Shown: in pieces, positions 16,856-28,529 of the stretch | Layout: each line of letters begins with the position of its first letter | Position numbering within the stretch: the stretch's first letter is position 1 | IMG/VR virus record: IMGVR_UViG_3300044821_000201 | Source: a virus | Length of the DNA: 33,061 bases | Reading direction: 5' to 3' (one strand) | Made by a program: the position numbers and the translations under genes | Notes under the pieces: generated by a model | Told to the model about the DNA's origin: nothing | The model's database searches: none | Seen by the model: only the letters and a program-made list of their open reading frames with translations

Positions 16856-16881
16856 AGCGTTTTTGGACGCTGGAGCAGAAC

Positions 16882-16968
16882 GCGGCGTGAAAGCGGAGGT
16901 GGTCCTCCCACTCGGCTGTAAACCGAGCGCCCTCGGGCAAGAGGTTCGATTCCTTCCACGCCGCACCA
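16882..16968 (+). tRNA. tRNA-Tyr(GTA)
   Basis: 8-bp acceptor gcggcgtg/cacgccgc. Anticodon arm ctcgg-cuGUAaa-ccgag. Long variable arm. T-loop TTCGATT. ACCA 3' end encoded. D-arm atypical. Confidence 0.6.
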
Positions 16969-17020
16969 GATGTTTCACGAAGAAAGGAAGTACGGAAAGA
17001 AAACCGCGGCTCGCTGAAAG

Positions 17021-17093
17021 CGGGTCCGAGGTGTTGTGGCGGCATGCTGGGCTTTTACCCCACGCGGCGCGGGTTCGAACCCCGCCGGACTCA
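17021..17093 (+). tRNA. tRNA-Lys(TTT)-like
   Basis: Acceptor gggtccg/cggactc (one G-U). T-arm gcggg-TTCGAAC-cccgc. Anticodon loop cuUUUac on a 4-bp stem with C-C at 27:43. Weak D-stem gtgt/gcat. Confidence 0.4.
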
Positions 17094-17104
17094 TTCTCTC
17101 TTTC

Positions 17105-17175
17105 GCGCTTGTAGCTCATTGGTCGAGCCGACGGTTCTTACCCGTCAGGACGAGGTTCGATCCCTCGCAGGCGCA
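17105..17175 (+). tRNA. tRNA-Lys(CTT)
   Basis: Acceptor gcgcttg/caggcgc. D-arm TAGCTCATTGGTCGAGC. Anticodon arm gacgg-uuCUUac-ccgtc. T-loop TTCGATC. Confidence 0.65.
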
Positions 17176-17176
17176 C

Positions 17177-17250
17177 TCCGGGATCGTCTAACGGCAGGAC
17201 AACGAGCTCTGACCTCGTGAAAGTTGGTTCGAATCCAGCTCCCGGAACCA
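17177..17250 (+). tRNA. tRNA-Gln(CTG)
   Basis: Acceptor tccggga/tcccgga. D-stem gtc/gac. Anticodon arm acgag-cuCUGac-ctcgt. T-loop TTCGAAT. ACCA encoded. Begins 1 nt after the previous tRNA. Confidence 0.65.
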
Positions 17251-17370
17251 AGGCCCTCGATAGGGGGCCCTGACCTTTGACAACCTAAAAGCGGCGTGCC
17301 GGTGAGCAAAGCGTTCACGGAGGGCTCCCGCTCGTACGAGGGGGTGGCCACCAGCCGCCCCCGTTCTCAT

Positions 17371-17442
17371 TCCGTCCTAGCACAATGGCCGTGCGCTCGC
17401 CTGTTAAGCGAGATTATCCTGGTTCGAGTCCGGGGGACGGAG
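17371..17442 (+). tRNA. tRNA-Asn(GTT)
   Basis: Acceptor tccgtcc/ggacgga. D-stem gcac/gtgc. Anticodon arm ctcgc-cuGUUaa-gcgag. T-loop TTCGAGT. Confidence 0.65.
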
Positions 17443-17449
17443 CAAGAAA

Positions 17450-17517
17450 GCCGGCTCGGTCATGGGACCACCATCTTTTGTAATGATGTCAGGACGGTTC
17501 GATCCCGTCAGTCGGCT
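17450..17517 (+). tRNA. tRNA-Thr(TGT), compressed D-arm
   Basis: Acceptor gccggct/agtcggc. T-arm gacgg-TTCGATC-ccgtc. Anticodon loop uuUGUaa on catc/gatg stem with U-U at 31:39. 68 nt. Confidence 0.4.
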
Positions 17518-17560
17518 CCGTCCCCCGGCAGACGGGGCGAAAGACATAGTCTGCCTCCAG

Positions 17561-17632
17561 GGCCCATTCGACCACTGGCTAAGTCGGCGGTCTTTCCAAC
17601 CGCAGAACGGGGATCGATACCCCGATGGGTCA
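17561..17632 (+). tRNA. tRNA-Glu(TTC)
   Basis: Acceptor ggcccat/atgggtc. D-stem gac/gtc. Anticodon arm gcggt-cuUUCca-accgc. Unusual T-loop ATCGATA in cgggg/ccccg stem. Confidence 0.5.
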
Positions 17633-17674
17633 CCGCGCGGGCACAAGCCAACCGCTTTAAAAACTCGCACCGAC

Positions 17675-17747
17675 TAATCAATCTGTCTCGAAAGCTAACC
17701 TGGTGGAAGCATCCGGCTGAAAACCGGAGGGTGTCGGTTCGATCCCG
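17675..17747 (+). tRNA. tRNA-Phe(GAA)
   Basis: Acceptor gtctcga/tcgagac. Anticodon arm tccgg-cuGAAaa-ccgga. T-arm gtcgg-TTCGATC-ccgac. Confidence 0.7.
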
Positions 17748-18433
17748 ACTCGAGACACAGAGTATCTTGAGTGTCCTTTCAAGTGTTTTCTGACGGCGTT
17801 GTCGGAAACCCCGAGAAAAGTGCCTGCTCCCCTGAAACCGAGTTCGCGGACCATACTAACGAGGTGATCGCGGCTTGGCCATACCACTTTGAATTTTGTA
17901 CCGACTTTCGATATGTGATCACAGGCCACACACGACTTAGCACTTTTACTTATGGCCGCTCCGCATAGGCAGTGTTTTCTGATTTTCTTCTTTTTTCCGC
18001 GGGAATAGGTCGGTGTCTGAGAGTGACAATTTGGACATAACAGACGAAGATTTGACAGTAGGTAATTTCTCCTGTCGCCGTCCACATGGTCGAGTTGGAG
18101 GGTTATTTTCTGACCCATCCAATCAACTAACTTGCATTTACTGCATTCATTCGGCAAAATCCCGGCCTTCACCAGCCTATTTTTGATACTACTGCTCCCA
18201 TTCGAATCTTTACAGAGGAGTTCGGAAAGAGGTCTCGGCCGTGATAATGTCTGGACGTACGGCAATAGATGTGATGTATTCAGTCCGAGCCTTAATATGT
18301 GCCTATCCAGGCTTCGAAAATTTCCAGCGCCATGAGAACTCAAACCGAGTTTTCTTATTGTTTCGGCCTTAGAGAGACTCGTCGATAGAGCGATCCTTAA
18401 CTGATGGTCAGTCCATTTTCTTATGGGCATCAT
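17678..18433 (-). CDS. HNH homing endonuclease (N-terminal HNH, C-terminal Zn-finger/HTH-like DNA-binding region, I-HmuI-like layout)
   Basis: Motif DHVDGDRRNYLLSNLRLLCPNCHSQT. Low-GC island. The 3' end overlaps tRNA-Phe on the opposite strand; C-terminal ...RVGIEPTPSGF is the reverse-strand translation of the tRNA T-arm. Confidence 0.8.
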   Translation of the reverse strand: MMPIRKWTDHQLRIALSTSLSKAETIRKLGLSSHGAGNFRSLDRHILRLGLNTSHLLPYVQTLSRPRPLSELLCKDSNGSSSIKNRLVKAGILPNECSKCKLVDWMGQKITLQLDHVDGDRRNYLLSNLRLLCPNCHSQTPTYSRGKKKKIRKHCLCGAAISKSAKSCVACDHISKVGTKFKVVWPSRDHLVSMVRELGFRGAGTFLGVSDNAVRKHLKGHSRYSVSRVGIEPTPSGFQPDASTRLAFETD

Positions 18434-18464
18434 AGAACGTTACCGTTTCAACTGGTTCGACGTT

Positions 18465-18538
18465 CGGAGTGCGGGCTCAAGGCGGGCCGCCTGATTTGGG
18501 ATCAGGATATCAGGTGAGTTCGATTCTCACCACTCCGA
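18465..18538 (+). tRNA. tRNA-Pro(TGG)
   Basis: Acceptor cggagtg/cactccg. Anticodon arm cctga-uuUGGga-tcagg. T-arm gtgag-TTCGATT-ctcac. Confidence 0.55.
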
Positions 18539-18543
18539 CGAAC

Positions 18544-18615
18544 GGGTTCCTAGTGTAGTGGTCTGCACAGCTGATTGTGGCTCAGCTAGTCCGGGTCCGA
18601 TTCCCGGGGTTCCCT
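18544..18615 (+). tRNA. tRNA-His(GTG)-like, defective acceptor stem
   Basis: Anticodon arm gctga-uuGUGgc-tcagc. D-stem gtg/cac. T-arm ccggg-TCCGATT-cccgg. Acceptor gggttcc/ggttccc has tandem U-U mismatches and no G-1. Confidence 0.35.
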
Positions 18616-18619
18616 CAAC

Positions 18620-18689
18620 GCTCCCGCCGGCGGATCCGGTGGACCCTTTCCTAAAGGGACTTACGAAGGCTCGACCCCTTCCGGGAGCG
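18620..18689 (+). tRNA. tRNA-Arg(CCT)
   Basis: Acceptor gctcccg/cgggagc shared with other Arg tRNAs. Anticodon loop uuCCUaa on a 4-bp stem. Atypical T-loop CTCGACC (stem gaagg/ccttc). 70 nt. Confidence 0.45.
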
Positions 18690-18761
18690 CAAAAGACGGC
18701 TGGATCTTCCTAACGGGTCGCACCCGGAGGTGCCGGTGGACCGGCAAACAAATCAGCCCAT

Positions 18762-18833
18762 GCCTCGTGAGCCAGCAAGTGTGGGCACCCGCCTGTCGAG
18801 CGGAGGAGAGGGGAGCGTTACCCCTACGGGGCG
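18762..18833 (+). tRNA. tRNA-Asp(GTC) with noncanonical T-loop AGCGTTA
   Basis: Acceptor gcctcgt/acggggc. Anticodon loop cuGUCga. T-arm agggg-AGCGTTA-cccct. Confidence 0.45.
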
Positions 18834-18837
18834 CTAT

Positions 18838-18909
18838 AGGTCTGAGGCTTAGGTAGCCGGCGAGACTCCAAATCTCGCGACGACGTGGTTCGATTCCACG
18901 CAGACCTGC
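18838..18909 (+). tRNA. tRNA-Trp(CCA)
   Basis: Acceptor aggtctg/cagacct. Anticodon arm cgaga-cuCCAaa-tctcg. T-arm cgtgg-TTCGATT-ccacg. Confidence 0.6.
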
Positions 18910-18923
18910 AGGAAGAGCATAAC

Positions 18924-18994
18924 GGGGATGGACGCGGAAGGCCGCTGGCTTCTCCTGCAAAGAAGCCGTCAGGGAGCGTTACCCTGCATCTCCA
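18924..18994 (+). tRNA. tRNA-Ala(TGC)-like with noncanonical T-loop AGCGTTA
   Basis: Acceptor ggggatg/catctcc with G3-U70. Anticodon arm cttct-ccUGCaa-agaag. T-arm caggg-AGCGTTA-ccctg. Confidence 0.45.
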
Positions 18995-19000
18995 CGAAAC

Positions 19001-19071
19001 GCCGTCTCAGCACGATGGTCGTGCTCTCCCCTGGTATGGGAGCGGATCGGGTTCGACTCCCGAAGGCGGCT
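19001..19071 (+). tRNA. tRNA-Thr(GGT)
   Basis: Acceptor gccgtct/aggcggc. D-arm gcac-gatggtc-gtgc. Anticodon arm ctccc-cuGGUau-gggag. T-arm tcggg-TTCGACT-cccga. Confidence 0.65.
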
Positions 19072-19122
19072 CCGGCGGTCCCGAAAGCCTCGCTCCGGCG
19101 ACGGCGAGTAGGGACGGCCAAT

Positions 19123-19193
19123 GCGACCTTGGCCGAATGGTTAGGCCTCTGCCTTCCAAGCAGAAGAAGCGGGTTCGATTCCCGCAGGTCGCT
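19123..19193 (+). tRNA. tRNA-Gly(TCC)
   Basis: Acceptor gcgacct/aggtcgc. Anticodon arm tctgc-cuUCCaa-gcaga. T-arm gcggg-TTCGATT-cccgc. Confidence 0.65.
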
Positions 19194-19205
19194 CTCCGCC
19201 ATGAG

Positions 19206-19278
19206 CGCGGGCAAGGCCGACTGGTGAGGCGGAAATCTGCCAAGTTTTCACAGGAGGGTCCGATCCCCTCTGCCCGCT
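19206..19278 (+). tRNA. tRNA-Gly(GCC)
   Basis: Acceptor gcgggca/tgcccgc. Anticodon arm gaaat-cuGCCaa-gtttt. T-arm gaggg-TCCGATC-ccctc. Confidence 0.55.
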
Positions 19279-19285
19279 CCGAGAC

Positions 19286-19357
19286 GACGCGCAGCACTGG
19301 CCCGTGCTGAGAGGTCTGCAAAACCGCTACGGCCCGGTCCGATTCCGGGGCGCGTCT
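19286..19357 (+). tRNA. tRNA-Cys(GCA)
   Basis: Acceptor gacgcgc/gcgcgtc. D-stem gcac/gtgc. Anticodon arm gaggt-cuGCAaa-accgc. T-arm cccgg-TCCGATT-ccggg. Confidence 0.55.
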
Positions 19358-19364
19358 CCGACAT

Positions 19365-19432
19365 GCTCCCGCCGTTGGACGGCGATGGGTCTTCTAAGCC
19401 CGCTCGGCCAGGTTCGAATCCTGGCGGGAGCG
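19365..19432 (+). tRNA. tRNA-Arg(TCT), reduced D-arm
   Basis: Acceptor gctcccg/cgggagc. Anticodon arm tgggt-cuUCUaa-gcccg. T-arm ccagg-TTCGAAT-cctgg. 68 nt. Confidence 0.45.
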
Positions 19433-19443
19433 CGACACGACAC

Positions 19444-19515
19444 GCCCCGTTCGACTACTGGCTAGGTCGGGACCCTCTCAAGGTCCAGGAACCGGATCGA
19501 TACCGGTACGGGGTG
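19444..19515 (+). tRNA. tRNA-Glu(CTC)
   Basis: Acceptor gccccgt/acggggt. D-stem gac/gtc. Anticodon arm ggacc-cuCUCaa-ggtcc. T-loop ATCGATA (as in tRNA-Glu(TTC)). Confidence 0.55.
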
Positions 19516-19533
19516 CCGCACTGCACGAGAAAC

Positions 19534-19604
19534 GTCCCCGCCTAGGGATTTAGGCATTGACGCTACGAACGTCGACTGCGCAGGCTCGACTCCTGCCGGG
19601 GACT
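19534..19604 (+). tRNA. tRNA-Arg(ACG)
   Basis: Acceptor gtccccg/cggggac. Anticodon arm tgacg-cuACGaa-cgtcg. T-arm gcagg-CTCGACT-cctgc. D-stem ccta/tagg abuts the acceptor stem. Confidence 0.5.
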
Positions 19605-19615
19605 CCGACACACAA

Positions 19616-19684
19616 GCTCTCGCCGGCGGATCCGGCCCTGCCCCTCCGAAGGGCGGACATGCTGTTCGACTCAGCACGGGAGCG
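19616..19684 (+). tRNA. tRNA-Arg(CCG)
   Basis: Acceptor gctctcg/cgggagc. Anticodon arm tgccc-cuCCGaa-gggcg. T-arm tgctg-TTCGACT-cagca. 69 nt. Confidence 0.5.
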
Positions 19685-19685
19685 C

Positions 19686-19759
19686 TGCGGGCGAGTGAAA
19701 CGGTTTACACACTGGGCTCATAACCCACGTAACAGCTGGTTCGACTCCAGTGCCCGCTA
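19686..19759 (+). tRNA. tRNA-Met(CAT), initiator-like
   Basis: Anticodon arm tggg-cuCAUaa-ccca with three consecutive G-C pairs (initiator hallmark). Acceptor tgcgggc/gcccgct with 1:72 mismatch. T-arm gctgg-TTCGACT-ccagt. Confidence 0.5.
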
Positions 19760-19760
19760 C

Positions 19761-19829
19761 GGTGGCAACGCAAGGCGCGACGCGGCTCTCATAAGGCCGG
19801 CGGCTGTGGTTCAAGTCCACGTGCCACCA
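19761..19829 (+). tRNA. tRNA-Met or Ile2 (CAT), elongator type
   Basis: Acceptor ggtggca/tgccacc. Anticodon arm cggct-cuCAUaa-ggccg. T-arm tgtgg-TTCAAGT-ccacg. Short D-arm. 69 nt. Confidence 0.5.
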
Positions 19830-19830
19830 C

Positions 19831-19902
19831 TCCAGGGTGGTGTAGCGGAAGCATGCAGGCCTTTGAAGCCTTGCGACCCGCGTTCGAATCGCGGACCTGG
19901 AA
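19831..19902 (+). tRNA. tRNA-Gln(TTG)
   Basis: Acceptor tccaggg/acctgga (G-A at 7:66). D-stem gtgt/gcat. Anticodon loop cuUUGaa. T-arm ccgcg-TTCGAAT-cgcgg. Confidence 0.5.
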
Positions 19903-19906
19903 CTAT

Positions 19907-19978
19907 CGGAGACAACGCTCAGGGTGGGCGGCGCCGTTCGGGGCGGTGTGTTGGCGGGTTCGATCCCCGCGTCTCCGA
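19907..19978 (+). tRNA. tRNA-Pro(CGG)
   Basis: Acceptor cggagac/gtctccg. Anticodon arm cgccg-uuCGGgg-cggtg. T-arm gcggg-TTCGATC-cccgc. Confidence 0.6.
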
Positions 19979-19984
19979 CGACTC

Positions 19985-20058
19985 GCTGGACGAGAGCAGC
20001 AAGAGAAGCCGGCGGTCTTACAAGCCGCAGTCGCCCGGAGCGTTACCGGGGTCCAGCA
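19985..20058 (+). tRNA. tRNA-Val(TAC) with noncanonical T-loop AGCGTTA
   Basis: Acceptor gctggac/gtccagc. Anticodon arm gcggt-cuUACaa-gccgc. T-arm cccgg-AGCGTTA-ccggg. Weak D-arm. Confidence 0.45.
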
Positions 20059-20062
20059 CGAC

Positions 20063-20144
20063 GTCCGCTTGGTGGAATTGGCATACACAGCCGACTTAAA
20101 ACCGGCCGCCCTCGGGCATCCCGGATCGTTGCCGGGAGCGGACA
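20063..20144 (+). tRNA. tRNA-Leu(TAA)
   Basis: Acceptor gtccgct/agcggac. Anticodon loop cuUAAaa (A-C at 31:39). Long variable arm cgccctcgggcat. T-arm cccgg-ATCGTTG-ccggg. Confidence 0.5.
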
Positions 20145-20148
20145 CCGA

Positions 20149-20220
20149 CTGCCTCAACGCTCTGGTTGAGCTGCGGGGGCTTATATCTCTTGCGGGCCGG
20201 TCCGATTCCGGCGGGGCGGA
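20149..20220 (+). tRNA. tRNA-Ile(TAT)-like, probably degenerate
   Basis: Acceptor ctgcctc/ggggcgg (two G-U). D-stem gctc/gagc. T-arm gccgg-TCCGATT-ccggc. Anticodon arm ggggg-cuUAUau-ctctt is G-U rich. Confidence 0.3.
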
Positions 20221-20233
20221 CGGAGAGACTTAC

Positions 20234-20305
20234 GGAGCTGGACGGTCTGGTTGACCTTTGTCGCCTGATAAGCGACCCGGCCGTGTTCGAATCACGGCAG
20301 CTCCA
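20234..20305 (+). tRNA. tRNA-Ile(GAT)
   Basis: Acceptor ggagctg/cagctcc. D-stem ggtc/gacc. Anticodon arm gtcgc-cuGAUaa-gcgac. T-arm ccgtg-TTCGAAT-cacgg. Confidence 0.6.
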
Positions 20306-20309
20306 CTAC

Positions 20310-20385
20310 GCAGGATGAGCCAGCAAGCGAAGGCGCCAGCTCGACAAGCTGGAATAGCTGGGAGCGTTACCCAGATCCTGTACCA
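20310..20385 (+). tRNA. tRNA-Val(GAC) with noncanonical T-loop AGCGTTA
   Basis: Acceptor gcaggat/atcctgt. Anticodon arm ccagc-ucGACaa-gctgg (C33). T-arm ctggg-AGCGTTA-cccag. ACCA encoded. Confidence 0.45.
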
Positions 20386-20386
20386 T

Positions 20387-20469
20387 GCGCTCGTGGCGTA
20401 ATAGAAGCCGCGCTACGTTCAGACCGTAGTGGTCGCGAGACCGTCAAGGTGCAAGTCCTTGCGAGCGCA
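20387..20469 (+). tRNA. tRNA-Leu(CAG)
   Basis: Acceptor gcgctcg/cgagcgc. Anticodon arm ctacg-uuCAGac-cgtag. Long variable arm tggtcgcgagaccgt. T-arm caagg-TGCAAGT-ccttg. Confidence 0.55.
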
Positions 20470-20478
20470 CGAACATAT

Positions 20479-20561
20479 CCCGACGTGGAGGAAAAGCAGA
20501 CTCGACATCCTGAGAAGGTGTTGGCCGCAAGGCCGTGCACGTGCAATTCGTGTCGTCGGGA
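20479..20561 (+). tRNA. tRNA-Leu(GAG)
   Basis: Acceptor cccgacg/cgtcggg. Anticodon arm acatc-cuGAGaa-ggtgt. Long variable arm tggccgcaaggccgt. T-arm gcacg-TGCAATT-cgtgt. Confidence 0.55.
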
Positions 20562-20565
20562 CTAT

Positions 20566-20654
20566 GCACATATGGCGAAATGCAAACGCATCTGATTCAA
20601 AACCAGACGGGGGTTAAACCCCCCTTGCCGGTTCAATCCCGGCTATGTGCACCA
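20566..20654 (+). tRNA. tRNA-Leu(CAA)
   Basis: Acceptor gcacata/tatgtgc. D-stem gcg/cgc. Anticodon loop uuCAAaa (A-C at 31:39). Variable arm with ggggg/ccccc stem. T-arm gccgg-TTCAATC-ccggc. ACCA encoded. Confidence 0.6.
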
Positions 20655-20828
20655 TGTTTCATCCAATAGCCCGGAGGTGGTGTTTCTATCCCCCTTGATT
20701 TACATCGCTTCTTTACCCCTGAAGAACTGACTCCTAAATTTTTCGCTATGGTTGTGGTCGGTTCTTTGAACAACATCAGTTGTAAGACCTCATCGGTCGG
20801 CCATGAAGTTTGTTTAAGGACCCTGAAT

Positions 20829-21347
20829 ATGTCTCACACGAGGACCCTTCTTCTCTCCCCCTGGTACGTCCCGATCAAGGTCCTGCGGTGGCAGGACGCA
20901 GTGAAGATGCGCTATGAGGGCACGGCCGAGGTGGTCGTGGAGTACGACGACGAGATCTCGTCCCCGTCAGTGACGTGGAGAATGCCGGCGGTCATGCGGC
21001 TGCGCAGGATGCCGAGCTCGCAGAAGCGCGGCGTGAAGTTCTCGCGCCTCAACGTGTACCAGAGGGACGGACATAGGTGCCAGTACTGCGGCGAGCGGTT
21101 CCCCCTCTCTTCCCTGTCCTACGACCACGTCGTACCCCGGGCCGCCGGCGGCCGGACGGACTGGACGAACATCGTCACCGCCTGCAAGCCGTGCAACACG
21201 AGGAAGGCGGACAAGAGCTGTGACGACTCGGGGATGTTCCCCCTCCGGCCGCCGGTGAGGCCGAGGTCGCTCCCGATGTCGGGGCCGGCCATCGATCCCG
21301 CCAGCGCCCCCGAGGAGTGGCTCGGGTTCGTCCGCGACCTGGTTTAG
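20829..21347 (+). CDS. HNH endonuclease
   Basis: Motif CQYCGERFPLSSLSYDHVVPRAAGGRTDWTNIVTACKPCNTRKAD. ATG at 20829 preferred over the ORF-track start at 20748. Low-GC leader. Confidence 0.8.
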   Translation: MSHTRTLLLSPWYVPIKVLRWQDAVKMRYEGTAEVVVEYDDEISSPSVTWRMPAVMRLRRMPSSQKRGVKFSRLNVYQRDGHRCQYCGERFPLSSLSYDHVVPRAAGGRTDWTNIVTACKPCNTRKADKSCDDSGMFPLRPPVRPRSLPMSGPAIDPASAPEEWLGFVRDLV

Positions 21348-21444
21348 AGCTACGCACGGAAGATGGACCGGCCAGGGGTCGGCGTCGCTTGGAAAGCGAA
21401 TGGAACCCGTAAGGGTTTGGGTTTCGAGTACCTCGTCTTCCGCA

Positions 21445-21523
21445 GAGGGTCTGGGCATGGCGCCAAACGGACCTTGAAAGTCCGCACATCTTATGATGAG
21501 CGTTCGATTCGCTGACCCTCTGC
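21445..21523 (+). tRNA. tRNA-Ser(TGA)
   Basis: Acceptor agagggt/accctct. Anticodon arm cggac-cuUGAaa-gtccg. Variable arm with catc/gatg stem. T-arm gagcg-TTCGATT-cgctg. Confidence 0.55.
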
Positions 21524-21540
21524 CGATGTCCCCATTCCCG

Positions 21541-21621
21541 GAAGGTGAATCCGCAGGGCGCGGAGCCCGGCTCGAAACCGGTGCGCACTTCACGGTGTGG
21601 CCTTCGATTGGTCCGCCTTCC
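21541..21621 (+). tRNA. tRNA-Ser(CGA)-like
   Basis: Acceptor gaaggtg/cgccttc. D-stem tccg/cgga. Anticodon loop cuCGAaa. ~15-nt variable arm. T-loop TTCGATT in a 4-bp stem (register irregular). Confidence 0.4.
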
Positions 21622-21630
21622 TCAACGACT

Positions 21631-21712
21631 GGAAACTGATTCCCCTGTGGAGGGGAGCGTGTTTGCTAAACACTGCGCGCGAAAGCGTGACGTTCGACTC
21701 GTCCTGTTTCCG
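21631..21712 (+). tRNA. tRNA-Ser(GCT)
   Basis: Acceptor ggaaact/tgtttcc (6 bp). D-stem cccc/gggg. Anticodon arm gtgt-uuGCUaa-acac. Variable arm cgc-GAAA-gcg. T-arm tgacg-TTCGACT-cgtcc. Confidence 0.5.
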
Positions 21713-21717
21713 CCTTC

Positions 21718-21785
21718 GCCGCCGTCTCTCGGAGAGCGTGCCCTTTCGTAATGGGTCCGGTCCGGTTCGACTCCGGACGGCGGCT
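21718..21785 (+). tRNA. tRNA-Thr(CGT), reduced D-arm
   Basis: Acceptor gccgccg/cggcggc. Anticodon loop uuCGUaa on a 4-bp stem. T-arm tccgg-TTCGACT-ccgga. 68 nt. Confidence 0.4.
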
Positions 21786-25787: not shown

Positions 25788-25861
25788 CCGCCGATAGCTC
25801 AGTGGTAACGAGCAGGGTTCTTATAAAGCTCAGGTCGATGGTTCAATTCCATCTCGGCGGA
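25788..25861 (+). tRNA. tRNA-Ile(TAT)
   Basis: Acceptor ccgccga/tcggcgg. Canonical D-arm TAGCTCAGTGGTAACGAGC. Anticodon arm gggtt-cuUAUaa-agctc. T-arm gatgg-TTCAATT-ccatc. Confidence 0.65.
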
Positions 25862-26684
25862 CAGTGTTAAGGAAGTGTGAGAATTCACGCTCCACAAAAG
25901 CCGGATCAGCTCTTCCGGGATCGTCGATTACATACGATTCATACCCGTATGTCTTAATCTCCTTCATCTTAATCCTGTCACGGTTCTGTACCTGAAGAAC
26001 GGAGTGCTTTGACTTTATCTTTCTCCGGTGCCATGGTCCGTTCCATAAGATGGCCATCTTCAGATCATGAATGATGACGTCCGCGTCCCACCCGTTGAAG
26101 ATCGGGGCGTTGGTCTGGACGTTGTCGAAATGTGCTAAGCACATATCTGCGAACAAGATTTTATTCCTCGAACGAGAGACACTTTGCATTCGCCCGATTC
26201 TTGAGAAAATTTCCTTCTTGCACGGGACACAGAACTTTCTTGAAGAATTTCTTTTGGTCTCGAAAGCAGTCCCGCACCGGCATGTTCGTTGAACAATCTC
26301 GTTCTGCCTTGCTTTCTTACAAGCGTCACATTTGACGGCCGGGGAAAACTTTGAATGTTTAGACGCTTTCCCGCATGTTATGCACCCGATATCTTTCGTC
26401 CCGCTTTTGTCCTTGGACTTGTTGGTGTGAGAGACTGAACAGTTAAGAGAACAGAAATCGTTTCTTCCTTCCTCCATCTCGGAGACATGCTTCATGAAGG
26501 TTATTCCACATTTGAAGCAGAGTATCATTATTTTGGTTACAGCGTCGTTCCCCCTGCAGGCATTACTGCAGAAGTACCTTTCGGAACGTCCTTGTTTTAC
26601 TGCATAGTCTATCTCGGCCTTTCTTCGGACAAACGAGCGCGTGCAGAAAGAACAGGTCAGACTGACGACAGTATTCATGTTCAA
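25830..26684 (-). CDS. Zn-finger-repeat (C-x2-C...FCSxxC x4-5) endonuclease-like protein, probable homing endonuclease
   Basis: Low-GC island. Repeated CxxC...FCSxxC modules shared with the HNH protein at 27313. The 3' end overlaps tRNA-Ile(TAT); C-terminal ...RRDGIEPST is the reverse translation of the tRNA T-arm. Confidence 0.55.
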   Translation of the reverse strand: MNMNTVVSLTCSFCTRSFVRRKAEIDYAVKQGRSERYFCSNACRGNDAVTKIMILCFKCGITFMKHVSEMEEGRNDFCSLNCSVSHTNKSKDKSGTKDIGCITCGKASKHSKFSPAVKCDACKKARQNEIVQRTCRCGTAFETKRNSSRKFCVPCKKEIFSRIGRMQSVSRSRNKILFADMCLAHFDNVQTNAPIFNGWDADVIIHDLKMAILWNGPWHRRKIKSKHSVLQVQNRDRIKMKEIKTYGYESYVIDDPGRADPAFVEREFSHFLNTVRRDGIEPST

Positions 26685-26743
26685 ATAGATGATAGAAAGT
26701 TCAAATCGGAATCAGCTCACTGTAATATGAAGGAGGAGAACAT

Positions 26744-27213: not shown

Positions 27214-27222
27214 ACAGATAAC

Positions 27223-27294
27223 GGGCTCGTCGTCCAATCGGGAGGACCGCGCTTTCGCAAAGCGCAAACGGAGGTTCGAATCCTCCCGAGTCCA
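27223..27294 (+). tRNA. tRNA-Ala(CGC)
   Basis: Acceptor gggctcg/cgagtcc with G3-U70. D-stem gtcc/ggac. Anticodon arm gcgct-uuCGCaa-agcgc. T-arm ggagg-TTCGAAT-cctcc. Confidence 0.7.
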
Positions 27295-27312: not shown

Positions 27313-27930
27313 ATGGAGCAATTCCTTCTTCCACCCACCACGTCTACCAGCTACGACGGCCGACAAAGGAAGGTATTCCCGAAACCGTGTGAGCAATGTC
27401 AGACTGTGTTCTGGGCTCCGAAGCATGTGCTCGGAAAGCGTCGACATTGCTCGCTCCAATGCTTCCGCGACTCCAGGAAGAAGAGGGTCAAACTCGTTTG
27501 CGCCTTTTGCGAAACGAGTTTCGAGAGGGTCCTCAACAAAGCGGATAGCCCGAAAGGCGAACACAGGTTCTGCAGTCGCTTCTGCAAAGACAAGGCGCAG
27601 ACAACAGAAGTCGGCTTGATAACGTACCTACACTACAAAGACGGCGTCGCCAACTACAGGGAGAGGGCGCTCCGCATCCACGGGAAAATATGTAAGAGAT
27701 GCGGATACGACGAAGACGAGAGGATGCTCGACGCCCACCATGTGAACGGGGACAGAACGGACCCGAGTCCTGAGAACCTCCGGGTACTTTGCGTCTGGTG
27801 TCACGCCCTGAAGACCAGAGGTGTGGAGGAGCACGAACGGGTTCCTAGTTCAATCGGGAGAACGGCGGTCCTGCAAACCGCAGACGGAGGGTTCGACTCC
27901 CCCGGGATCCACGAAGAGACGGGGTCTTAG
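27313..27930 (+). CDS. HNH endonuclease with N-terminal CxxC...HCSxxC Zn-finger repeats
   Basis: Motif CKRCGYDEDERMLDAHHVNGDRTDPSPENLRVLCVWCHALKT. The 3' end reads through tRNA-Ala(TGC) on the same strand. Confidence 0.8.
   Translation: MEQFLLPPTTSTSYDGRQRKVFPKPCEQCQTVFWAPKHVLGKRRHCSLQCFRDSRKKRVKLVCAFCETSFERVLNKADSPKGEHRFCSRFCKDKAQTTEVGLITYLHYKDGVANYRERALRIHGKICKRCGYDEDERMLDAHHVNGDRTDPSPENLRVLCVWCHALKTRGVEEHERVPSSIGRTAVLQTADGGFDSPGIHEETGS
27839..27911 (+). tRNA. tRNA-Ala(TGC)
   Basis: Acceptor gggttcc/gggatcc with G3-U70. D-arm TAGTTCAATCGGGAGAAC. Anticodon arm gcggt-ccUGCaa-accgc. T-arm gaggg-TTCGACT-ccccc. Confidence 0.6.
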
Positions 27931-28456: not shown

Positions 28457-28527
28457 GCCGGCTTAGCACTGGGGAGTGTTCCCGTTTTGTACTCGGGACC
28501 AAGCGGGTTCGACTCCCGTGGCCGGCT
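28457..28527 (+). tRNA. tRNA-Thr(TGT), second copy
   Basis: Acceptor gccggct/ggccggc. D-stem gcac/gtgt. Anticodon loop uuUGUac with U-U at 31:39. T-arm gcggg-TTCGACT-cccgt. Confidence 0.45.
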
Positions 28528-28529
28528 CC

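What the first reader, a model, noticed from the sequence alone, without database searches (positions are those of the whole stretch)
17450..21785. Systematic architectural oddities across the tRNA array
Both Glu tRNAs have T-loop ATCGATA. Arg(CCT) and Arg(ACG) have CTCGACC and CTCGACT, lacking T54. Leu(TAA) has ATCGTTG. Three of the four Arg tRNAs share acceptor gctcccg/cgggagc (Arg(CCG) has a one-base variant gctctcg), and three of them are 68-70 nt with compressed or abutting D-stems. Thr(TGT) occurs twice with a U31-U39 mismatch, and Leu(TAA) and Leu(CAA) have A31-C39. Several anticodon loops have C33 or C32-C33 (ccUGCaa, ucGACaa). The His-like tRNA has tandem U-U mismatches in the acceptor stem and no G-1. 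One Ile(TAT)-like copy has an almost all G-U anticodon stem. Either many of these are pseudogenes, or the element encodes minimalist, structurally divergent tRNAs. Divergent tRNAs could evade host anticodon nucleases or tRNA-targeting defences while still being charged.
Basis: partly seen in the sequence, partly recalled or inferred. Interest (0 to 1): 0.55.

Follow-up and report, generated by a model that had tools for sequence, protein, structure and literature searches.

The report
Mobile tRNA array with rewired elbows
A probable giant phage of myxobacteria carries a mobile block of 39 tRNA genes, and most of them break supposedly universal tRNA rules in conserved, mutually compensating ways, so they look like working unconventional tRNAs and not dead copies.

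Summary
Window 16884-21785 holds 39 same-strand tRNA-like genes covering all 20 amino acids. Only 13 reach the Rfam tRNA threshold, and ARAGORN misses four entirely.

These genes are not decaying. Related arrays share the gene order and an HNH homing endonuclease. They occur on related large contigs that are probably phage and in Myxococcota genome assemblies. Across them the deviations recur by tRNA family, and stems keep pairing through compensatory changes (91% of double changes).

Three covariations involve "universal" tertiary nucleotides in 840 distinct array tRNAs:
- U55→G always comes with G18→A (39 of 39).
- U58 always comes with A54 (19 of 19).
- A54/A58 comes with A60 (17 of 18), the eukaryotic-initiator type of elbow.

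All four Arg tRNAs have a compact core that keeps the ArgRS element A20. Its closest known analogue is mitochondrial tRNASer(UCN).

The array belongs to the known HNH-linked "L-array" kind. The elbow rewiring looks undescribed. Evasion of tRNA-targeting nucleases is plausible but untested. Compensated drift is the main rival.

The parts
16884..21785 (+). Whole tRNA array. It holds 39 tRNA-like genes in one orientation covering all 20 amino acids, interrupted only by two homing-endonuclease genes. The finding's range 17450-21785 is a subset.
   Evidence: ARAGORN default and -ps85, manual and grammar calls, table.
16884..16963 (+). Tyr(GTA), a weak call (ARAGORN 86.8) with a long variable arm.
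   Evidence: Only a tRNA-Sec model hit of 23 bits.
17022..17093 (+). Lys(TTT), canonical T-loop.
   Evidence: Rfam 45 bits.
17105..17175 (+). Lys(CTT), canonical.
   Evidence: Rfam 56.1 bits.
17177..17250 (+). Gln(CTG), canonical, CCA encoded.
   Evidence: Rfam 54.4 bits.
17371..17442 (+). Asn(GTT), canonical.
   Evidence: Rfam 55.9 bits.
17450..17517 (+). Thr(TGT), 68 nt, compact core with 1 nt between the acceptor and a 4-bp D stem and a 4-nt D loop, plus U31.U39.
   Evidence: No RF00005 hit at E<=10.
17561..17632 (+). Glu(TTC), T-loop ATCGATA (A54, A58, A60).
   Evidence: Identical in L007. L008 differs by a compensatory G-C to A-U change in the anticodon stem.
17685..17757 (+). Phe(GAA), canonical. 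Its L010 homologue has G18 to A together with T-loop CGCGAAA.
   Evidence: Rfam 58.8 bits.
17678..18433 (-). Low-GC homing-endonuclease ORF (251 aa) inserted between the Phe and Pro tRNAs. There is no room for it at the same place in L007.
   Evidence: PADLOC HEase 9e-19, weak Pfam HNH_3, GC dip, L007 gap of only 196 nt.
18465..18538 (+). Pro(TGG), 7-nt variable region.
   Evidence: Rfam 26.7 bits, below threshold.
18544..18615 (+). His(GTG), tandem U.U in the acceptor stem, C at -1, U73, T-loop TCCGATT (C55). 100% identical in L010.
18620..18689 (+). Arg(CCT), 70 nt. The D hairpin CCGG-CGGAT-CCGG abuts the acceptor. 6-bp anticodon stem with an A.A mismatch, T-loop CTCGACC (C54).
   Evidence: Not called by ARAGORN. 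Grammar scan, RNAfold centroid.
18762..18833 (+). Asp(GTC), T-loop AGCGTTA (A54, G55, U58), D loop agcaAGtgtg (A18), G73.
18838..18908 (+). Trp(CCA), compact core (1-nt linker, 6-bp anticodon stem).
   Evidence: Rfam 32.9 bits.
18924..18994 (+). Ala(TGC), T-loop AGCGTTA, D loop AAGG, C33 (ccTGCaa), G3:U70 kept. 100% identical in L010.
19001..19071 (+). Thr(GGT).
   Evidence: ARAGORN 117. No RF00005 hit.
19123..19193 (+). Gly(TCC), canonical.
   Evidence: Rfam 66.3 bits.
19207..19278 (+). Gly(GCC), T-loop TCCGATC (C55).
   Evidence: Rfam 40.5 bits.
19286..19357 (+). Cys(GCA), compact core, T-loop TCCGATT (C55), U73.
   Evidence: Only a tRNA-Sec model hit of 27.7 bits.
19365..19432 (+). Arg(TCT), 68 nt, D hairpin CCGT-TGG-ACGG abutting the acceptor. 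ARAGORN miscalls the region as a 93-nt 'Pro(tgg)' at 19341-19433.
   Evidence: The RNAfold MFE is not a cloverleaf.
19444..19515 (+). Glu(CTC), T-loop ATCGATA (A54, A58, A60).
19534..19604 (+). Arg(ACG), 71 nt, D hairpin CCTA-GGGATT-TAGG abutting the acceptor, 6-bp anticodon stem, T-loop CTCGACT (C54).
   Evidence: Not called by ARAGORN.. The RNAfold MFE is a cloverleaf.
19616..19684 (+). Arg(CCG), 69 nt, D hairpin CCGG-CGGAT-CCGG, 6-bp anticodon stem, 3-nt variable loop.
19687..19758 (+). Met(CAT) with GGG/CCC in the anticodon stem (initiator-like stem).
   Evidence: Rfam 40.5 bits.
19761..19829 (+). Met/Ile2(CAT), 69 nt, compact.
   Evidence: ARAGORN 101. Its best Rfam hit is the mascRNA model at 21 bits.
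19831..19902 (+). Gln(TTG), canonical.
   Evidence: Rfam 45.4 bits.
19907..19978 (+). Pro(CGG).
   Evidence: ARAGORN 100. Only a tRNA-Sec model hit of 23 bits.
19985..20058 (+). Val(TAC), T-loop AGCGTTA, D region gcagcaAGagaa with only about 2 bp of D stem. The weakest candidate and possibly defective.
   Evidence: Not called by ARAGORN..
20063..20144 (+). Leu(TAA), T-loop ATCGTTG (A54:U58), A31.C39.
20149..20220 (+). Ile(TAT), T-loop TCCGATT (C55), 6-bp anticodon stem with 3 G.U pairs.
   Evidence: Stem covaries in L007 and L010.
20234..20305 (+). Ile(GAT).
   Evidence: ARAGORN 110.6. No RF00005 hit.
20310..20385 (+). Val(GAC), T-loop AGCGTTA, D loop agcaAGcgaa (A18), C33 (tcGACaa), CCA encoded.
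20387..20469 (+). Leu(CAG), T-loop TGCAAGT (G55), D loop aatAGaag (A18).
   Evidence: Rfam 44.3 bits.
20479..20561 (+). Leu(GAG), T-loop TGCAATT (G55), D loop gaaaAGcaga (A18).
20566..20654 (+). Leu(CAA), A31.C39, D loop without GG, CCA encoded. Last gene before the HNH, as in relatives and in Virus Rctr197k.
   Evidence: Rfam 51 bits.
20829..21347 (+). HNH endonuclease (172 aa; the longest ORF starts at 20748). It marks this array family.
   Evidence: Pfam HNH/HNH_5 about 1e-15. 510 homologues. It lies next to tRNA arrays in most of 80 loci from genome assemblies, nearly all Myxococcota.
21358..21442 (+). Ser(GGA), long variable arm, 8-bp acceptor call.
   Evidence: ARAGORN -ps85 98.8.
21444..21522 (+). 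Ser(TGA).
   Evidence: ARAGORN 103.7.
21540..21622 (+). Ser(CGA), weak call.
   Evidence: ARAGORN -ps85 88.8. Syntenic Ser(CGA) scores 109-110 in L008 and L010.
21631..21712 (+). Ser(GCT).
   Evidence: ARAGORN -ps85 97.7.
21718..21785 (+). Thr(CGT), 68 nt, compact core, U31.U39.
   Evidence: ARAGORN -ps85 95.7. The mismatch recurs in 6 of 29 array Thr(CGT), with C.C in 5 more.
28457..28529 (+). Second Thr(TGT) copy with U31.U39, outside the array. Same acceptor gccggct as the copy at 17450.
   Evidence: ARAGORN -ps85 calls it 'Gln(ttg)'. Re-registered by hand: the TGT register gives 4 G-C pairs plus the U.U mismatch.
27839..27912 (+). Ala(TGC) in the second, otherwise canonical tRNA cluster. 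It also has C33 (ccTGCaa).
   Evidence: Rfam 50.8 bits.

Best explanation
The region is a long, horizontally mobile tRNA gene array linked to a homing endonuclease, the kind called an 'L-array'. It sits on what is most likely a large phage of Myxococcota (probably Polyangia), next to a tmRNA, a PTH2 peptidyl-tRNA hydrolase and an HD protein resembling part of the CCA-adding enzyme.

Its 39 genes encode a nearly self-sufficient set of working tRNAs. Many have swapped 'universal' features for alternative solutions that preserve the structure:
- G18:U55 replaced by A18:G55.
- T54:A58 replaced by A54:U58, by the initiator-like A54/A58/A60, or by C54.
- U55 replaced by C55.
- U33 replaced by C33.
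- A compact core resembling mt-tRNASer(UCN), with no 8-9 linker, a 4-6-nt D loop, a 6-bp anticodon stem and a 3-4-nt variable loop.

Proposed working:
1. The array is transcribed as precursor RNA and cut by host RNase P and 3' processing enzymes.
2. CCA is added enzymatically, since only 3 of the 39 genes encode it.
3. Host synthetases charge the tRNAs through retained identity elements.
4. The tRNAs sustain translation of phage mRNAs when host tRNAs are depleted or cleaved.
5. The tRNAs lack the nucleotides that every host tRNA shares (U33, T54-Psi55, G18, U8). They are therefore poor substrates for nucleases or enzymes that read those nucleotides.

Shown here: the array, its family membership, conservation, stem covariation and tertiary covariation. 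Inferred: expression, charging and use in translation (about 0.75 for most genes). Speculative: that escape from tRNA-targeting factors is the selective reason (about 0.35).
For: Family and mobility.
- The same gene order (Tyr-Lys-Lys-Gln-Asn-Thr-Glu-Phe-Pro-His-Arg-Asp-Trp-Ala-Thr-Gly-Gly-Cys-Arg-Glu-Arg-Arg-Met-Met-Gln-Pro-Val-Leu-Ile-Ile-Val-Leu-Leu-Leu-HNH-Ser x4-Thr) is found in L007, L008, L010, L012 and L013. A truncated version sits in the chromosomal-looking L014.
- The HNH lies next to arrays in most of 80 loci from genome assemblies, nearly all Myxococcota.
- L-arrays linked to an HNH are described in PMC8421152.

Function versus decay.
- For the 22 ARAGORN-called genes without an Rfam hit, 74% of changed pairs stay paired against a 42% null, and 954 of 1048 double changes keep pairing. 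This matches the Rfam-positive genes.
- RNAalifold on 31 compact Arg tRNAs gives a cloverleaf with compensatory changes in 19 of 20 pairs.
- The D stem that abuts the acceptor shows cg/ta/gc/at replacements, and the D loop keeps GGA.

Tertiary covariation in 840 distinct array tRNAs.
- 54/58 is T/A in 790, A/T in 19, A/A in 18 and C/A in 11.
- All 39 tRNAs with G55 have AG in place of G18G19, across roughly 20 anticodon families. By contrast 764 of 782 tRNAs with U55 have GG. Fisher's exact test gives 2e-34, and aligned homologues with the same anticodon show repeated independent double switches.
- A54/A58 goes with A60 in 17 of 18 tRNAs, against 7 of 790 canonical ones (1e-28).

Other support.
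- Identity elements and discriminators are retained.
- By analogy, 23 of 26 tRNAs of the Anabaena L-array are expressed and aminoacylated.
- tRNases that read universal T-loop nucleotides exist: CdiA-CT E479 cuts at the conserved T-Psi step of the T loop.
- The phage-tRNA anti-defence concept is published.
Against: - There are no expression, processing or charging data for this element.
- No sigma-70-like promoter was found on the array strand.
- Only a minority of the tRNAs carry a rewired T loop: 15 of 39 in the window and about 20% in the phage group. A nuclease aimed at T54-Psi55 would still destroy most of the set.
- The variants are scattered over different tRNA families in different relatives. 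That pattern is what compensated drift plus cassette exchange would also give.
- No tRNA nuclease or defence gene was found in the window, and the host tRNAs are unknown.
- Some genes look weak: Val(TAC), Tyr, Ser(CGA), and His without G-1/C73.
- The covariation counts rest on ARAGORN calls, which favour cloverleaves, and the comparisons are not phylogenetically independent.
- The phage identity of the window itself rests on relatives. No capsid or terminase gene was seen in the window.
Confidence: 0.5

Rival explanations
1. The tRNAs are functional, but the oddities are neutral. The array is supernumerary, briefly or rarely expressed, and constantly reshuffled by homing endonucleases. Selection on modification sites and fine structure is therefore relaxed. 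Slightly deleterious changes fix and are then compensated, as in mitochondrial tRNAs. No role in defence escape is needed.
For: - Variants are scattered over many families and differ between near-identical genomes. Array flanks are 99% identical to L006 and L007, while the array interior is 77-88% identical.
- Several different 'solutions' coexist.
- There is a gradient of T-loop deviance: 4% in Myxococcaceae-type arrays, 15% in Polyangia-type arrays and 20% in phage-type arrays.
- L-arrays are reported as cryptic and supernumerary.
- The compact cores resemble eroded mitochondrial tRNAs.
Against: - Some variants are strongly conserved over deep divergence. Examples are the A54/A60 elbow of Glu tRNAs, C54 in Arg(CCT), C33 in Val tRNAs even in a Mycolicibacterium plasmid and in Rctr197k, and the His and Ala(TGC) copies that are 100% identical in L010.
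- Stems are as well maintained as in the canonical members.
- Drift does not explain why the changes concentrate on the few nucleotides that are universal recognition points.
Confidence: 0.3
2. Many of the deviant loci are pseudogenes, that is, decaying duplicates kept only because they sit in a transcribed block.
For: - 26 of 39 genes fall below the Rfam tRNA threshold, and most of these are not reported at all at E<=10.
- ARAGORN misses 4 genes and only at a lowered threshold.
- Val(TAC) has almost no D stem, and the MFE folds of Arg(TCT), Thr(CGT) and Glu(TTC) are not cloverleaves.
- 3 of 26 genes in the Anabaena array are pseudogenes.
Against: - Compensatory stem changes and tertiary covariation.
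- Retained identity elements.
- The deviant genes are the only source in the element for six amino acids.
- Gene order and anticodon set are conserved across distant relatives.
Confidence: 0.08
3. The tRNA-like genes mainly serve roles outside translation, for example as decoys that soak up tRNA-targeting nucleases, or as homing and recombination targets for the embedded endonucleases.
For: - Two homing endonucleases sit inside the array.
- The T4 endonuclease SegB cuts within tRNA genes, as cited in PMC8421152.
- The array is a recombination hot spot.
Against: Decoys or homing sites would not need a complete anticodon set, retained synthetase identity elements, or conserved anticodon loops.
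Confidence: 0.05
4. The deviant tRNAs are tuned to partner enzymes encoded by the element itself (processing, CCA repair, modification or synthetases). They would form a partly orthogonal translation sub-system.
For: - Adjacent genes include a tmRNA, PTH2, an RRM protein and an HD protein resembling part of the CCA-adding enzyme. Relatives carry a full CCA-adding enzyme and an RlaP-like nucleotidyltransferase.
Against: - No synthetase or tRNA-modification gene was seen in the 33-kb window.
- The same array type sits in Myxococcota genome assemblies without these neighbours.
Confidence: 0.05

Closest known systems
L-arrays, or 'tRNA array units'. Examples are the Anabaena PCC 7120 trn operon, arrays on Mycobacterium plasmids and in mycobacteriophages, and Acidithiobacillus ICEs (Santamaria-Gomez 2021 PMC8421152; Tran 2016 PMC4758250; Morgado 2018 PMC5966550).
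   Same: - Dozens of same-strand tRNA genes with tiny spacers, in a non-periodic order.
- Spread by horizontal transfer between chromosomes, plasmids and phages.
- An HNH homing endonuclease is linked to the array.
- The tRNAs are supernumerary.
- The Leu(CAA)-HNH junction and Val(TAC) with C33 are shared with Virus Rctr197k; Val(TAC) with C33 also occurs in a Mycolicibacterium plasmid array.
   Different: - The extent of structural deviance. T loops are non-canonical in 20% of the phage group, against 1 of 30 in the Mycolicibacterium plasmid array and none of 11 good calls in Rctr197k.
- Here the HNH sits inside the array, before the Ser block, and not upstream of it.
- The cited L-array paper does not mention T-loop or D-loop features.
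Phage tRNAs proposed or shown to defeat tRNA-targeting defences. Examples are mycobacteriophage cluster C1 anticodon-loop variants (PMC10264068), T5 tRNAs against retron and PARIS systems (PMC11555353, PMC11464382).
   Same: - A large tRNA complement on a large phage.
- Deviations from consensus in the anticodon loop (C33, 31-39 mismatches) that could block cleavage.
   Different: - Those cases concern anticodon loops only.
- Here the main deviations are in the D/T elbow and the core.
- No cognate nuclease is known and nothing was tested.
Type I mitochondrial tRNASer(UCN) and tRNAPyl, the compact-core tRNAs (Krahn 2020, PMC7609411).
   Same: - 0-1 nt between the acceptor and D stems.
- A D loop of 4-6 nt, a 6-bp anticodon stem and a 3-4-nt variable loop.
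- G18G19 and a 7-nt T loop with C56 are kept, as in mt-tRNASer(UCN).
   Different: - The tRNAs are bacterial or phage-borne and serve Arg, Thr, Trp, Cys and Met.
- The Arg versions have no linker nucleotide at all.
- The resemblance is by architecture only. No homology is implied and no structure is known.
The eukaryotic initiator tRNA elbow (A20, A54, m1A58, A60; PMC10602860).
   Same: T loops AUCGAUA, AUCGAAA, AUCGACA and AUCAACA carry A54, A58 and A60 together, in 17 of 18 cases. AUCGAAA is the initiator T-loop sequence as I recall it from my own knowledge.
   Different: - The tRNAs here are elongators (Glu, His, Tyr, Asp, Ser, Trp, Pro) in bacteria and phages.
- A20 was not established.
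- No link to initiation.
Staphylococcal non-proteinogenic tRNAGly (PMC4574755).
   Same: Bacterial tRNAs that lack the canonical G18G19 and U55C56 yet are charged.
   Different: They have U18U19 or C18U19 and lose C56. Here G19:C56 is kept in 834 of 840 tRNAs and only 18:55 is swapped.

Membership tests
L-array / tRNA array unit | At least 20 tRNA genes at a density of at least 2 per kb (Tran 2016 definition). | tested here: met
   39 genes in 4.9 kb, about 8 per kb, including two endonuclease inserts.
L-array / tRNA array unit | Same orientation, short intergenic distances, non-periodic order. | tested here: met
   All genes are on the + strand. Most spacers are 0-15 nt, a few are 40-145 nt, and the two endonuclease inserts are about 700 nt each. 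The anticodon order does not repeat.
L-array / tRNA array unit | A linked HNH homing endonuclease. | tested here: met
   HNH at 20829-21347. Its homologues flank arrays in most of 80 loci from genome assemblies, nearly all Myxococcota, in a Nostoc plasmid, a Mycolicibacterium plasmid and Virus Rctr197k.
L-array / tRNA array unit | Horizontal spread, meaning the same array in unrelated replicons. | tested here: met
   The syntenic array occurs on phage-like contigs (L007, L008, L010, L012, L013), in a chromosomal-looking context (L014) and in complete Archangium and Myxococcus chromosomes.
L-array / tRNA array unit | The tRNAs are expressed and aminoacylated under some condition. | not testable with these tools
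   Only an analogy is available: 23 of 26 in Anabaena.
Canonical bacterial tRNA (Rfam RF00005) | Covariance-model score at or above the gathering threshold of 29 bits. | tested here: not met
   Met by 13 of 39. Pro(TGG) reaches 26.7 bits. The other 25 get no RF00005 hit at E<=10, even in 0.4-1 kb searches.
Canonical bacterial tRNA (Rfam RF00005) | Cloverleaf with a 7-bp acceptor stem, a 5-bp T stem, a 7-nt T loop and a 7-nt anticodon loop. | tested here: met
   ARAGORN or the grammar scan gives this for 38 of 39 (Tyr gets a 6-nt T loop). RNAfold alone recovers a cloverleaf-type fold for 11 of the 14 tested.
Canonical bacterial tRNA (Rfam RF00005) | Universal tertiary nucleotides U8, G18, G19, U33, T54, U55, C56 and A58. 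| tested here: not met
   C56 is kept, and G19 appears to be. In the window, 15 of 39 deviate at positions 54, 55 or 58, 6 have A18, the array Ala(TGC) and Val(GAC) have C33, and all 4 Arg lack positions 8-9.
Compact-core tRNA (type I mt-tRNASer(UCN) / tRNAPyl architecture) | At most 1 nt between the acceptor and D stems, a small D loop, a 6-bp anticodon stem and a variable loop of about 3 nt. | tested here: met
   All four window Arg tRNAs, and 37 distinct zero-linker Arg tRNAs in relatives. The 1-nt-linker versions are Thr, Trp and Cys. The resemblance is architectural only.
Compact-core tRNA (type I mt-tRNASer(UCN) / tRNAPyl architecture) | An L-shaped fold with a compact core, shown by a solved structure. 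| not testable with these tools
   No structure exists, and the tools here do not predict RNA 3D structure.
Initiator-type elbow | A54 with A58 and A60 in the T loop. | tested here: met
   17 of 18 A54/A58 tRNAs have A60, against 7 of 790 canonical ones. Both window Glu tRNAs belong to this class.
Initiator-type elbow | A20 in the D loop and an initiator function. | tested here: inconclusive
   The D-loop register is ambiguous. The anticodons are those of elongators (Glu, His, Tyr, Asp), so there is no initiator function.
Nuclease-refractory phage tRNAs (van den Berg 2023) | Anticodon-loop differences from the host tRNA at known cleavage sites. | tested here: inconclusive
   C33 occurs in 69 of 837 array tRNAs, and 31-39 mismatches are family-specific. 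The host tRNAs and host nucleases are unknown.
tRNA pseudogenes | Loss of pairing and of conservation relative to functional paralogues. | tested here: not met
   Pairing is retained as well as in the Rfam-positive genes. Tertiary changes are compensated. Individual exceptions are possible, such as Val(TAC).

The most novel reading that the evidence does not exclude
Mobile tRNA arrays of Myxococcota and their large phages hold a natural repertoire of alternative tRNA elbows and cores: A18:G55, A54:U58, the A54/A58/A60 elbow in elongators, C55, C33, and Arg tRNAs with no 8-9 linker. On this reading they are selected because they remove the nucleotides that every cellular tRNA shares. The tRNAs would then be invisible to T-loop-directed, D-loop-directed or U33-directed nucleases and modification enzymes while still being charged and decoded. 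The A18:G55 swap would be a previously unrecognised isosteric replacement of one of the most conserved tertiary pairs in biology.
Probability: 0.3. Interest if true: 0.8.

Novelty: new variant of a known kind. Interest (0 to 1): 0.62.

Why it matters
G18:Psi55, T54:A58 and U33 are treated as near-invariant in elongator tRNAs. RNase P, the CCA-adding enzyme, TrmA, TruB, T-boxes and several toxins read them.

A natural data set in which these positions change only in specific pairs or triplets gives direct, testable rules for what the tRNA elbow tolerates. In 840 distinct array tRNAs there are 39 with A18:G55, 19 with A54:U58 and 17 with A54/A58/A60.

It also supplies ready-made scaffolds for orthogonal tRNAs. 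It extends the 'phage tRNAs versus tRNA-targeting immunity' idea from the anticodon loop to the body of the tRNA.

There is a practical lesson too. Standard covariance models miss two thirds of this array, so tRNA complements of such elements are badly under-annotated.

Tried and rejected
- Megablast of the array and tblastn of the 622-aa neighbour against GenBank phages found no match.
- An exact-protein look-up with my start codon found nothing. It worked with the database's shorter form, P0001.
- Viral-contig scans with the 622-aa protein or its alignment found nothing.
- The single metagenome scan gave one 5.6-kb contig with no array.
- PHROGs on 20 window ORFs gave only a PTH2 family and a DnaJ-domain hit, so the phage assignment of the window itself rests on relatives.
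- PADLOC found no defence or nuclease gene apart from the homing endonuclease.
- The promoter scan found nothing on the array strand.
- Staphylococcal non-proteinogenic tRNAGly was considered as a precedent for the G55 class. I rejected it because those tRNAs have U18U19 or C18U19 and lose C56.
- Myxococcus phage Mx1 was considered as the closest cultured relative. It has the HNH between two Leu tRNAs but no large array.
- ARAGORN's 93-nt 'Pro(tgg)' at 19341-19433 is rejected as a miscall that overlaps Cys and Arg(TCT).
- A literature search for A18/G55 or for phage tRNA elbow variants found no description. This is weak evidence of novelty, because the library holds only open-access papers.

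Full report
**1. What is in the window**

ARAGORN at default settings finds a tmRNA (4688-5054) and 37 tRNAs, all on the + strand.

Between 16884 and 21785 the genes are almost contiguous. Lowering the ARAGORN threshold fills most gaps: Tyr, Asp, Ala(TGC), Val(GAC), three Ser and Thr(CGT). Four more tRNA-like genes are never called. These are Arg(CCT) 18620-18689, Arg(TCT) 19365-19432, Arg(ACG) 19534-19604 and Val(TAC) 19985-20058. I recovered them with a cloverleaf grammar scan and RNAfold.

The array therefore has 39 genes covering all 20 amino acids. It is interrupted only by a low-GC homing-endonuclease ORF (17678-18433, minus strand; PADLOC HEase 9e-19) and an HNH endonuclease (20829-21347).

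Only 13 of the 39 reach the Rfam tRNA gathering score. Most of the rest get no RF00005 hit even at E<=10 in searches of 0.4-1 kb.

**2. Checking the individual claims**

Almost all of them hold.
- The T loops are as stated: ATCGATA in both Glu, CTCGACC in Arg(CCT), CTCGACT in Arg(ACG) and ATCGTTG in Leu(TAA).
- All four Arg tRNAs are compact, at 68-71 nt.
- U31.U39 occurs in three Thr tRNAs.
- A31.C39 occurs in Leu(TAA) and Leu(CAA).
- C33 occurs in Ala(TGC) and Val(GAC).
- His has tandem U.U pairs and no G-1.
- The only overstatement is 'almost all G-U' for Ile(TAT). Its stem has 3 G.U pairs out of 6.
- The second Thr(TGT) lies outside the stated range, at 28457-28529.
- Unconstrained RNAfold gives the same cloverleaf-type arms and T loops for 11 of 14 deviant genes. 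The oddities are therefore not hand-folding errors.

Four genes (Asp, Ala(TGC), Val(TAC), Val(GAC)) share the T arm GAGCGTTAC, which occurs 4 times against 0.16 expected. This gives a T loop AGCGUUA. Two Leu genes have UGCAAGU or UGCAAUU.

**3. What the element is**

The window has about 62% GC. It gives no nucleotide match, and its 622-aa protein no protein match, in GenBank phages, and almost no PHROG hits.

Upstream of the array lie the following genes:
- a major-vault-protein-like gene;
- a response-regulator receiver;
- the tmRNA;
- an RRM protein;
- a PTH2 peptidyl-tRNA hydrolase;
- an HD protein matching only the C-terminal half of a CCA-adding enzyme;
- a DnaJ-domain protein.

Homologues of the vault-like protein sit on IMG/VR viral contigs of up to 150 kb. 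Two near-identical ones carry a large tRNA array.

Homologues of a 622-aa neighbour led to four further contigs: L006 and L007 (35 and 63 kb), and L008 and L010 (156-160 kb). All have the same gene order as the window. Related contigs encode phage-type helicase, primase, exonuclease and nucleotidyltransferase.

I conclude that this is probably a large phage. No capsid or terminase gene was seen in the window itself.

**4. The array is a member of a widespread mobile family**

The HNH inside the array has 510 homologues. Contigs fetched through it (L012-L014) and 80 loci from genome assemblies (L015-L094) are nearly all Myxococcota. They include Polyangiaceae MAGs at 50-75% identity and complete Archangium and Myxococcus chromosomes at 41-47%. 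Most carry a tRNA array next to the HNH.

The order Tyr-Lys-Lys-Gln-Asn-Thr-Glu-Phe-Pro-His-Arg-Asp-Trp-Ala-Thr-Gly-Gly-Cys-Arg-Glu-Arg-Arg-Met-Met-Gln-Pro-Val-Leu-Ile-Ile-Val-Leu-Leu-Leu-HNH-Ser-Ser-Ser-Ser-Thr is shared by the window, L007, L008, L010, L012 and L013. A truncated version is present in L014, whose flanks look chromosomal.

More distant HNH homologues flank arrays in a Nostoc plasmid, a Mycolicibacterium plasmid and Virus Rctr197k (...Leu(CAA)-HNH-phosphatase).

This matches the published 'L-array': long, non-periodic, horizontally transferred, and linked to an HNH homing endonuclease, in bacteria and phages (Santamaria-Gomez 2021). In Anabaena, 23 of 26 such tRNAs are expressed and aminoacylated.

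The array is also a recombination hot spot. L006 and L007 are 99.0-99.8% identical to the window on both sides, but only 77-88% identical or unalignable inside the array. Conversely, the odd His and Ala(TGC) genes are 100% identical in L010, whose flanks are about 75% identical.

**5. Are the deviant genes alive?**

I compared the 22 ARAGORN-called window genes that lack an Rfam hit with same-anticodon homologues in the other arrays. Of 1640 base-pair instances with a change, 74% remain paired, against a 42% null. Of 1048 double changes, 954 keep pairing. The 13 Rfam-positive genes give 80% and 93%.

RNAalifold on 31 compact Arg tRNAs returns a cloverleaf in which 19 of 20 pairs show compensatory changes.

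Identity elements persist:
- G3:U70 in Ala.
- GGA (G18 G19 A20) in the 3-7-nt D loop (mostly 4-5 nt) of essentially all compact Arg tRNAs, together with C35.
- Discriminators U73 for Cys and Gly, A73 for Leu, Val, Ile, Phe, Lys, Pro and Ala, and G73 for Asp, three of the four Ser, Trp and Asn.

The identity rules themselves are from my own knowledge of E. coli tRNA identity.

The deviant genes are also the only copies in the element for Arg, Glu, Asp, Val, Ser and Tyr. Wholesale pseudogenisation is therefore unlikely. Single casualties, such as Val(TAC) with a D stem of about 2 bp, remain possible.

**6. Compensated changes at 'universal' tertiary positions**

This is the most interesting result. 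I pooled 840 distinct array tRNAs from 54 loci.
- **C56:** present in 834.
- **54/58:** T/A in 790, A/T in 19, A/A in 18, C/A in 11, and almost nothing else. U58 therefore occurs only with A54.
- **Position 55:** U in 782, G in 39, C in 18.
- **G55 with A18:** every one of the 39 G55 tRNAs has AG where G18G19 should be. Thirty have no GG at all and nine read AGG. By contrast 764 of 782 U55 tRNAs have GG (Fisher 2e-34). The G55/A18 tRNAs belong to roughly 20 anticodon families.
- **Repeated independent switches:** alignments to the nearest U55 homologue with the same anticodon show the same double switch again and again. One example is Gln(TTG), with ccaacAGcagg/TGCGAAT against ccaatGGcagg/TTCGAGT at 82% identity. 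Others are Ala(CGC), Leu(CAA), Leu(TAG), Gly(GCC), Asn and Gln(CTG) in cultured Myxococcus eversor. A Nostoc plasmid L-array has one case as well.
- **A54/A58 with A60:** this class has A60 in 17 of 18, against 7 of 790 canonical tRNAs (1e-28). That trio defines the special elbow of eukaryotic initiator tRNA (PMC10602860). Here it appears in elongators: Glu, His, Tyr, Asp, Ser, Trp and Pro. Both window Glu tRNAs belong to it.
- **C55:** this variant needs no change at position 18 (18 of 18 keep GG).
- **Window counts:** 15 of 39 genes deviate at 54, 55 or 58, and all six G55 genes have A18.

I found no description of A18:G55 or of phage tRNA elbow variants in the searchable literature. That library is limited to open-access papers.

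**7. The compact core**

Forty-one distinct Arg tRNAs from 24 sources (23 loci and the window) fit one plan:
- a 7-bp acceptor stem;
- then, in 37 of them, a 4-bp D stem with no linker at all (1 nt in the other four). Pair types at the four positions include cg/ta/gc, gc/cg/ta/at and gc/at/ta/cg, so the stem covaries;
- a short D loop, mostly of the form nGGAn;
- about 2 nt, then a 6-bp anticodon stem;
- a 3-4-nt variable loop (occasionally 5 nt) and a normal T arm.

The zero-linker Arg tRNAs are 68-73 nt long in total.

Thr, Trp, Cys, Met and some Ala tRNAs use the same plan with one linker nucleotide.

The nearest known architectures are mammalian mt-tRNASer(UCN) and tRNAPyl (Krahn 2020).

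Across the family there is a graded series, from canonical 75-77-nt Arg tRNAs in Archangium and Myxococcus chromosomes to these compact forms in the Polyangia and phage group.

**8. Anticodon-arm oddities are family traits**

C33 occurs in 69 of 837 array tRNAs. It is concentrated in Val (17 of 35), Gly(GCC), His, Leu(GAG) and Asp. Val(TAC) with C33 is shared even with the Mycolicibacterium plasmid and Rctr197k.

U31.U39 or C31.C39 recurs in Thr(CGT), Thr(TGT) and Trp. A31.C39 recurs in Leu(TAA).

Of 26 array His tRNAs, 24 have C73 and 13 encode G-1. The window/L010 copy is an outlier. It has C at -1 and U73, unless it is read in a register with G-1:C73 and a 4-bp T stem.

**9. Mechanism**

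Shown: a mobile, HNH-linked array of structurally constrained tRNA genes with alternative, compensated cores.

Inferred: the array is transcribed and processed by host enzymes. CCA is added enzymatically, because only 3 of 39 genes encode it. Relatives carry their own CCA-adding enzyme. Host synthetases charge the tRNAs, which are then used during infection.

The reason for the rewiring is open.
- My preferred reading is that losing U33, T54, Psi55, G18 and U8 makes the tRNAs poor substrates for factors that recognise what all host tRNAs share. I give that selective reason about 0.35 as a sub-claim; the overall explanation, including function, carries confidence 0.5. A tRNase that cuts at the conserved T-Psi step of the T loop exists, and tRNA-targeting immunity countered by phage tRNAs is established.
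- Against it, only about 20% of the phage-group tRNAs have a changed T loop, the variants are scattered, and no nuclease is known here.
- The main rival (0.30) is compensated drift under relaxed constraint in a supernumerary, recombining array. T-loop deviance rises from 4% to 15% to 20% going from Myxococcaceae-type to Polyangia-type to phage-type arrays. This fits either view.

**10. Verdict**

The array itself is a new member of a known kind, an L-array on a large phage. The conserved rewiring of universal tertiary pairs and the linker-less Arg tRNAs amount to a new variant worth experimental follow-up.

Noticed in passing
window 363-2990 (+): An 875-aa protein resembles the major vault protein (Pfam MVP_shoulder 6e-24, Vault_3). 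It is conserved at 41-45% identity on IMG/VR viral contigs L001-L005, and vault-like genes (Pfam MVP_shoulder) also precede the same gene order in L008 and L010. The cultured Myxococcus phage Mx1 carries a TROVE/Ro60-like protein near its HNH. Vault or Ro-type ribonucleoprotein components on myxophages are unexplained.
   Followed up: partly
window 4688-8285: A 'translation-care' module lies upstream of the array. It holds the tmRNA (tag ANDNNTVHALAA), an RRM_1 protein (5703-6128), a PTH2-type peptidyl-tRNA hydrolase (6937-7338), and a 316-aa HD protein (7335-8285). The HD protein matches only the C-terminal half of the actinobacterial CCA-adding enzyme and has no polymerase head. Relatives L012 and L013 have a full CCA-adding enzyme plus an RlaP-like nucleotidyltransferase.
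   Followed up: partly
window 16864-20828 compared with L006/L007: The array is a recombination hot spot. Flanks are 99.0-99.8% identical to L006 and L007, but the array interior is 77-88% identical or unalignable, with individual tRNA 'cassettes' replaced. The His and Ala(TGC) genes are instead 100% identical to those of L010, whose flanks are about 75% identical.
   Followed up: partly
window 17678-18433 (-): A low-GC homing-endonuclease ORF (PADLOC HEase 9e-19) is inserted between the Phe and Pro tRNAs. L007 has only a 196-nt gap at the same place.
   Followed up: yes
window 32431-32505; L010 17620-17692: The window tRNA scores 39 bits with Rfam, but ARAGORN reads a 6-nt anticodon loop (ttcgga). 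L010 has an array tRNA with an 8-nt anticodon loop (ctaaccgg), which might be a four-base anticodon or a frameshift-suppressor-like tRNA.
   Followed up: no
L003 21638-21712 and 22016-22090; L007 15538-15612; L069 6893-6967; L082; L096; L098: Leu tRNAs of 73-76 nt without the long variable arm (class-I-like tRNALeu) recur in these arrays. They include complete Archangium and Myxococcus chromosomes, a Nostoc plasmid and Virus Rctr197k.
   Followed up: no
window 25788-29238: A second, looser cluster of tRNAs (10 ARAGORN default calls) scores normally with Rfam (46-62 bits). It repeats the order Thr(GGT)-Gly(TCC)-Gly(GCC)-[Gly(CCC)]-Cys seen at 19001-19357. One of its genes, Thr(GGT) 28844, has C55, and Ala(TGC) 27839 has C33.
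   Followed up: no
window 17251-17370 and 18690-18761: These are two spacers inside the array with no callable tRNA. The first has two strong hairpins, one of them terminator-like (17340-17362 followed by a T-rich run). In L006 and L007 the same position holds an insert of about 940 bp, with a called ORF in L006. The second spacer may be a tRNA remnant (it contains cttcctaa).
   Followed up: no
window 19687-19758: This Met(CAT) has the initiator-type GGG/CCC anticodon stem but a paired 1-72 (G1-C72) and U73. The syntenic L010 gene (18154-18234) has the classical CGCGGGG...CCCCGCAAC initiator ends.
   Followed up: no
window 19761-19828 and 19371-19431: The compact tRNAs give their best Rfam match, below threshold, to the mascRNA/menRNA tRNA-like model (21 and 16 bits) and not to the tRNA model.
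   Followed up: no
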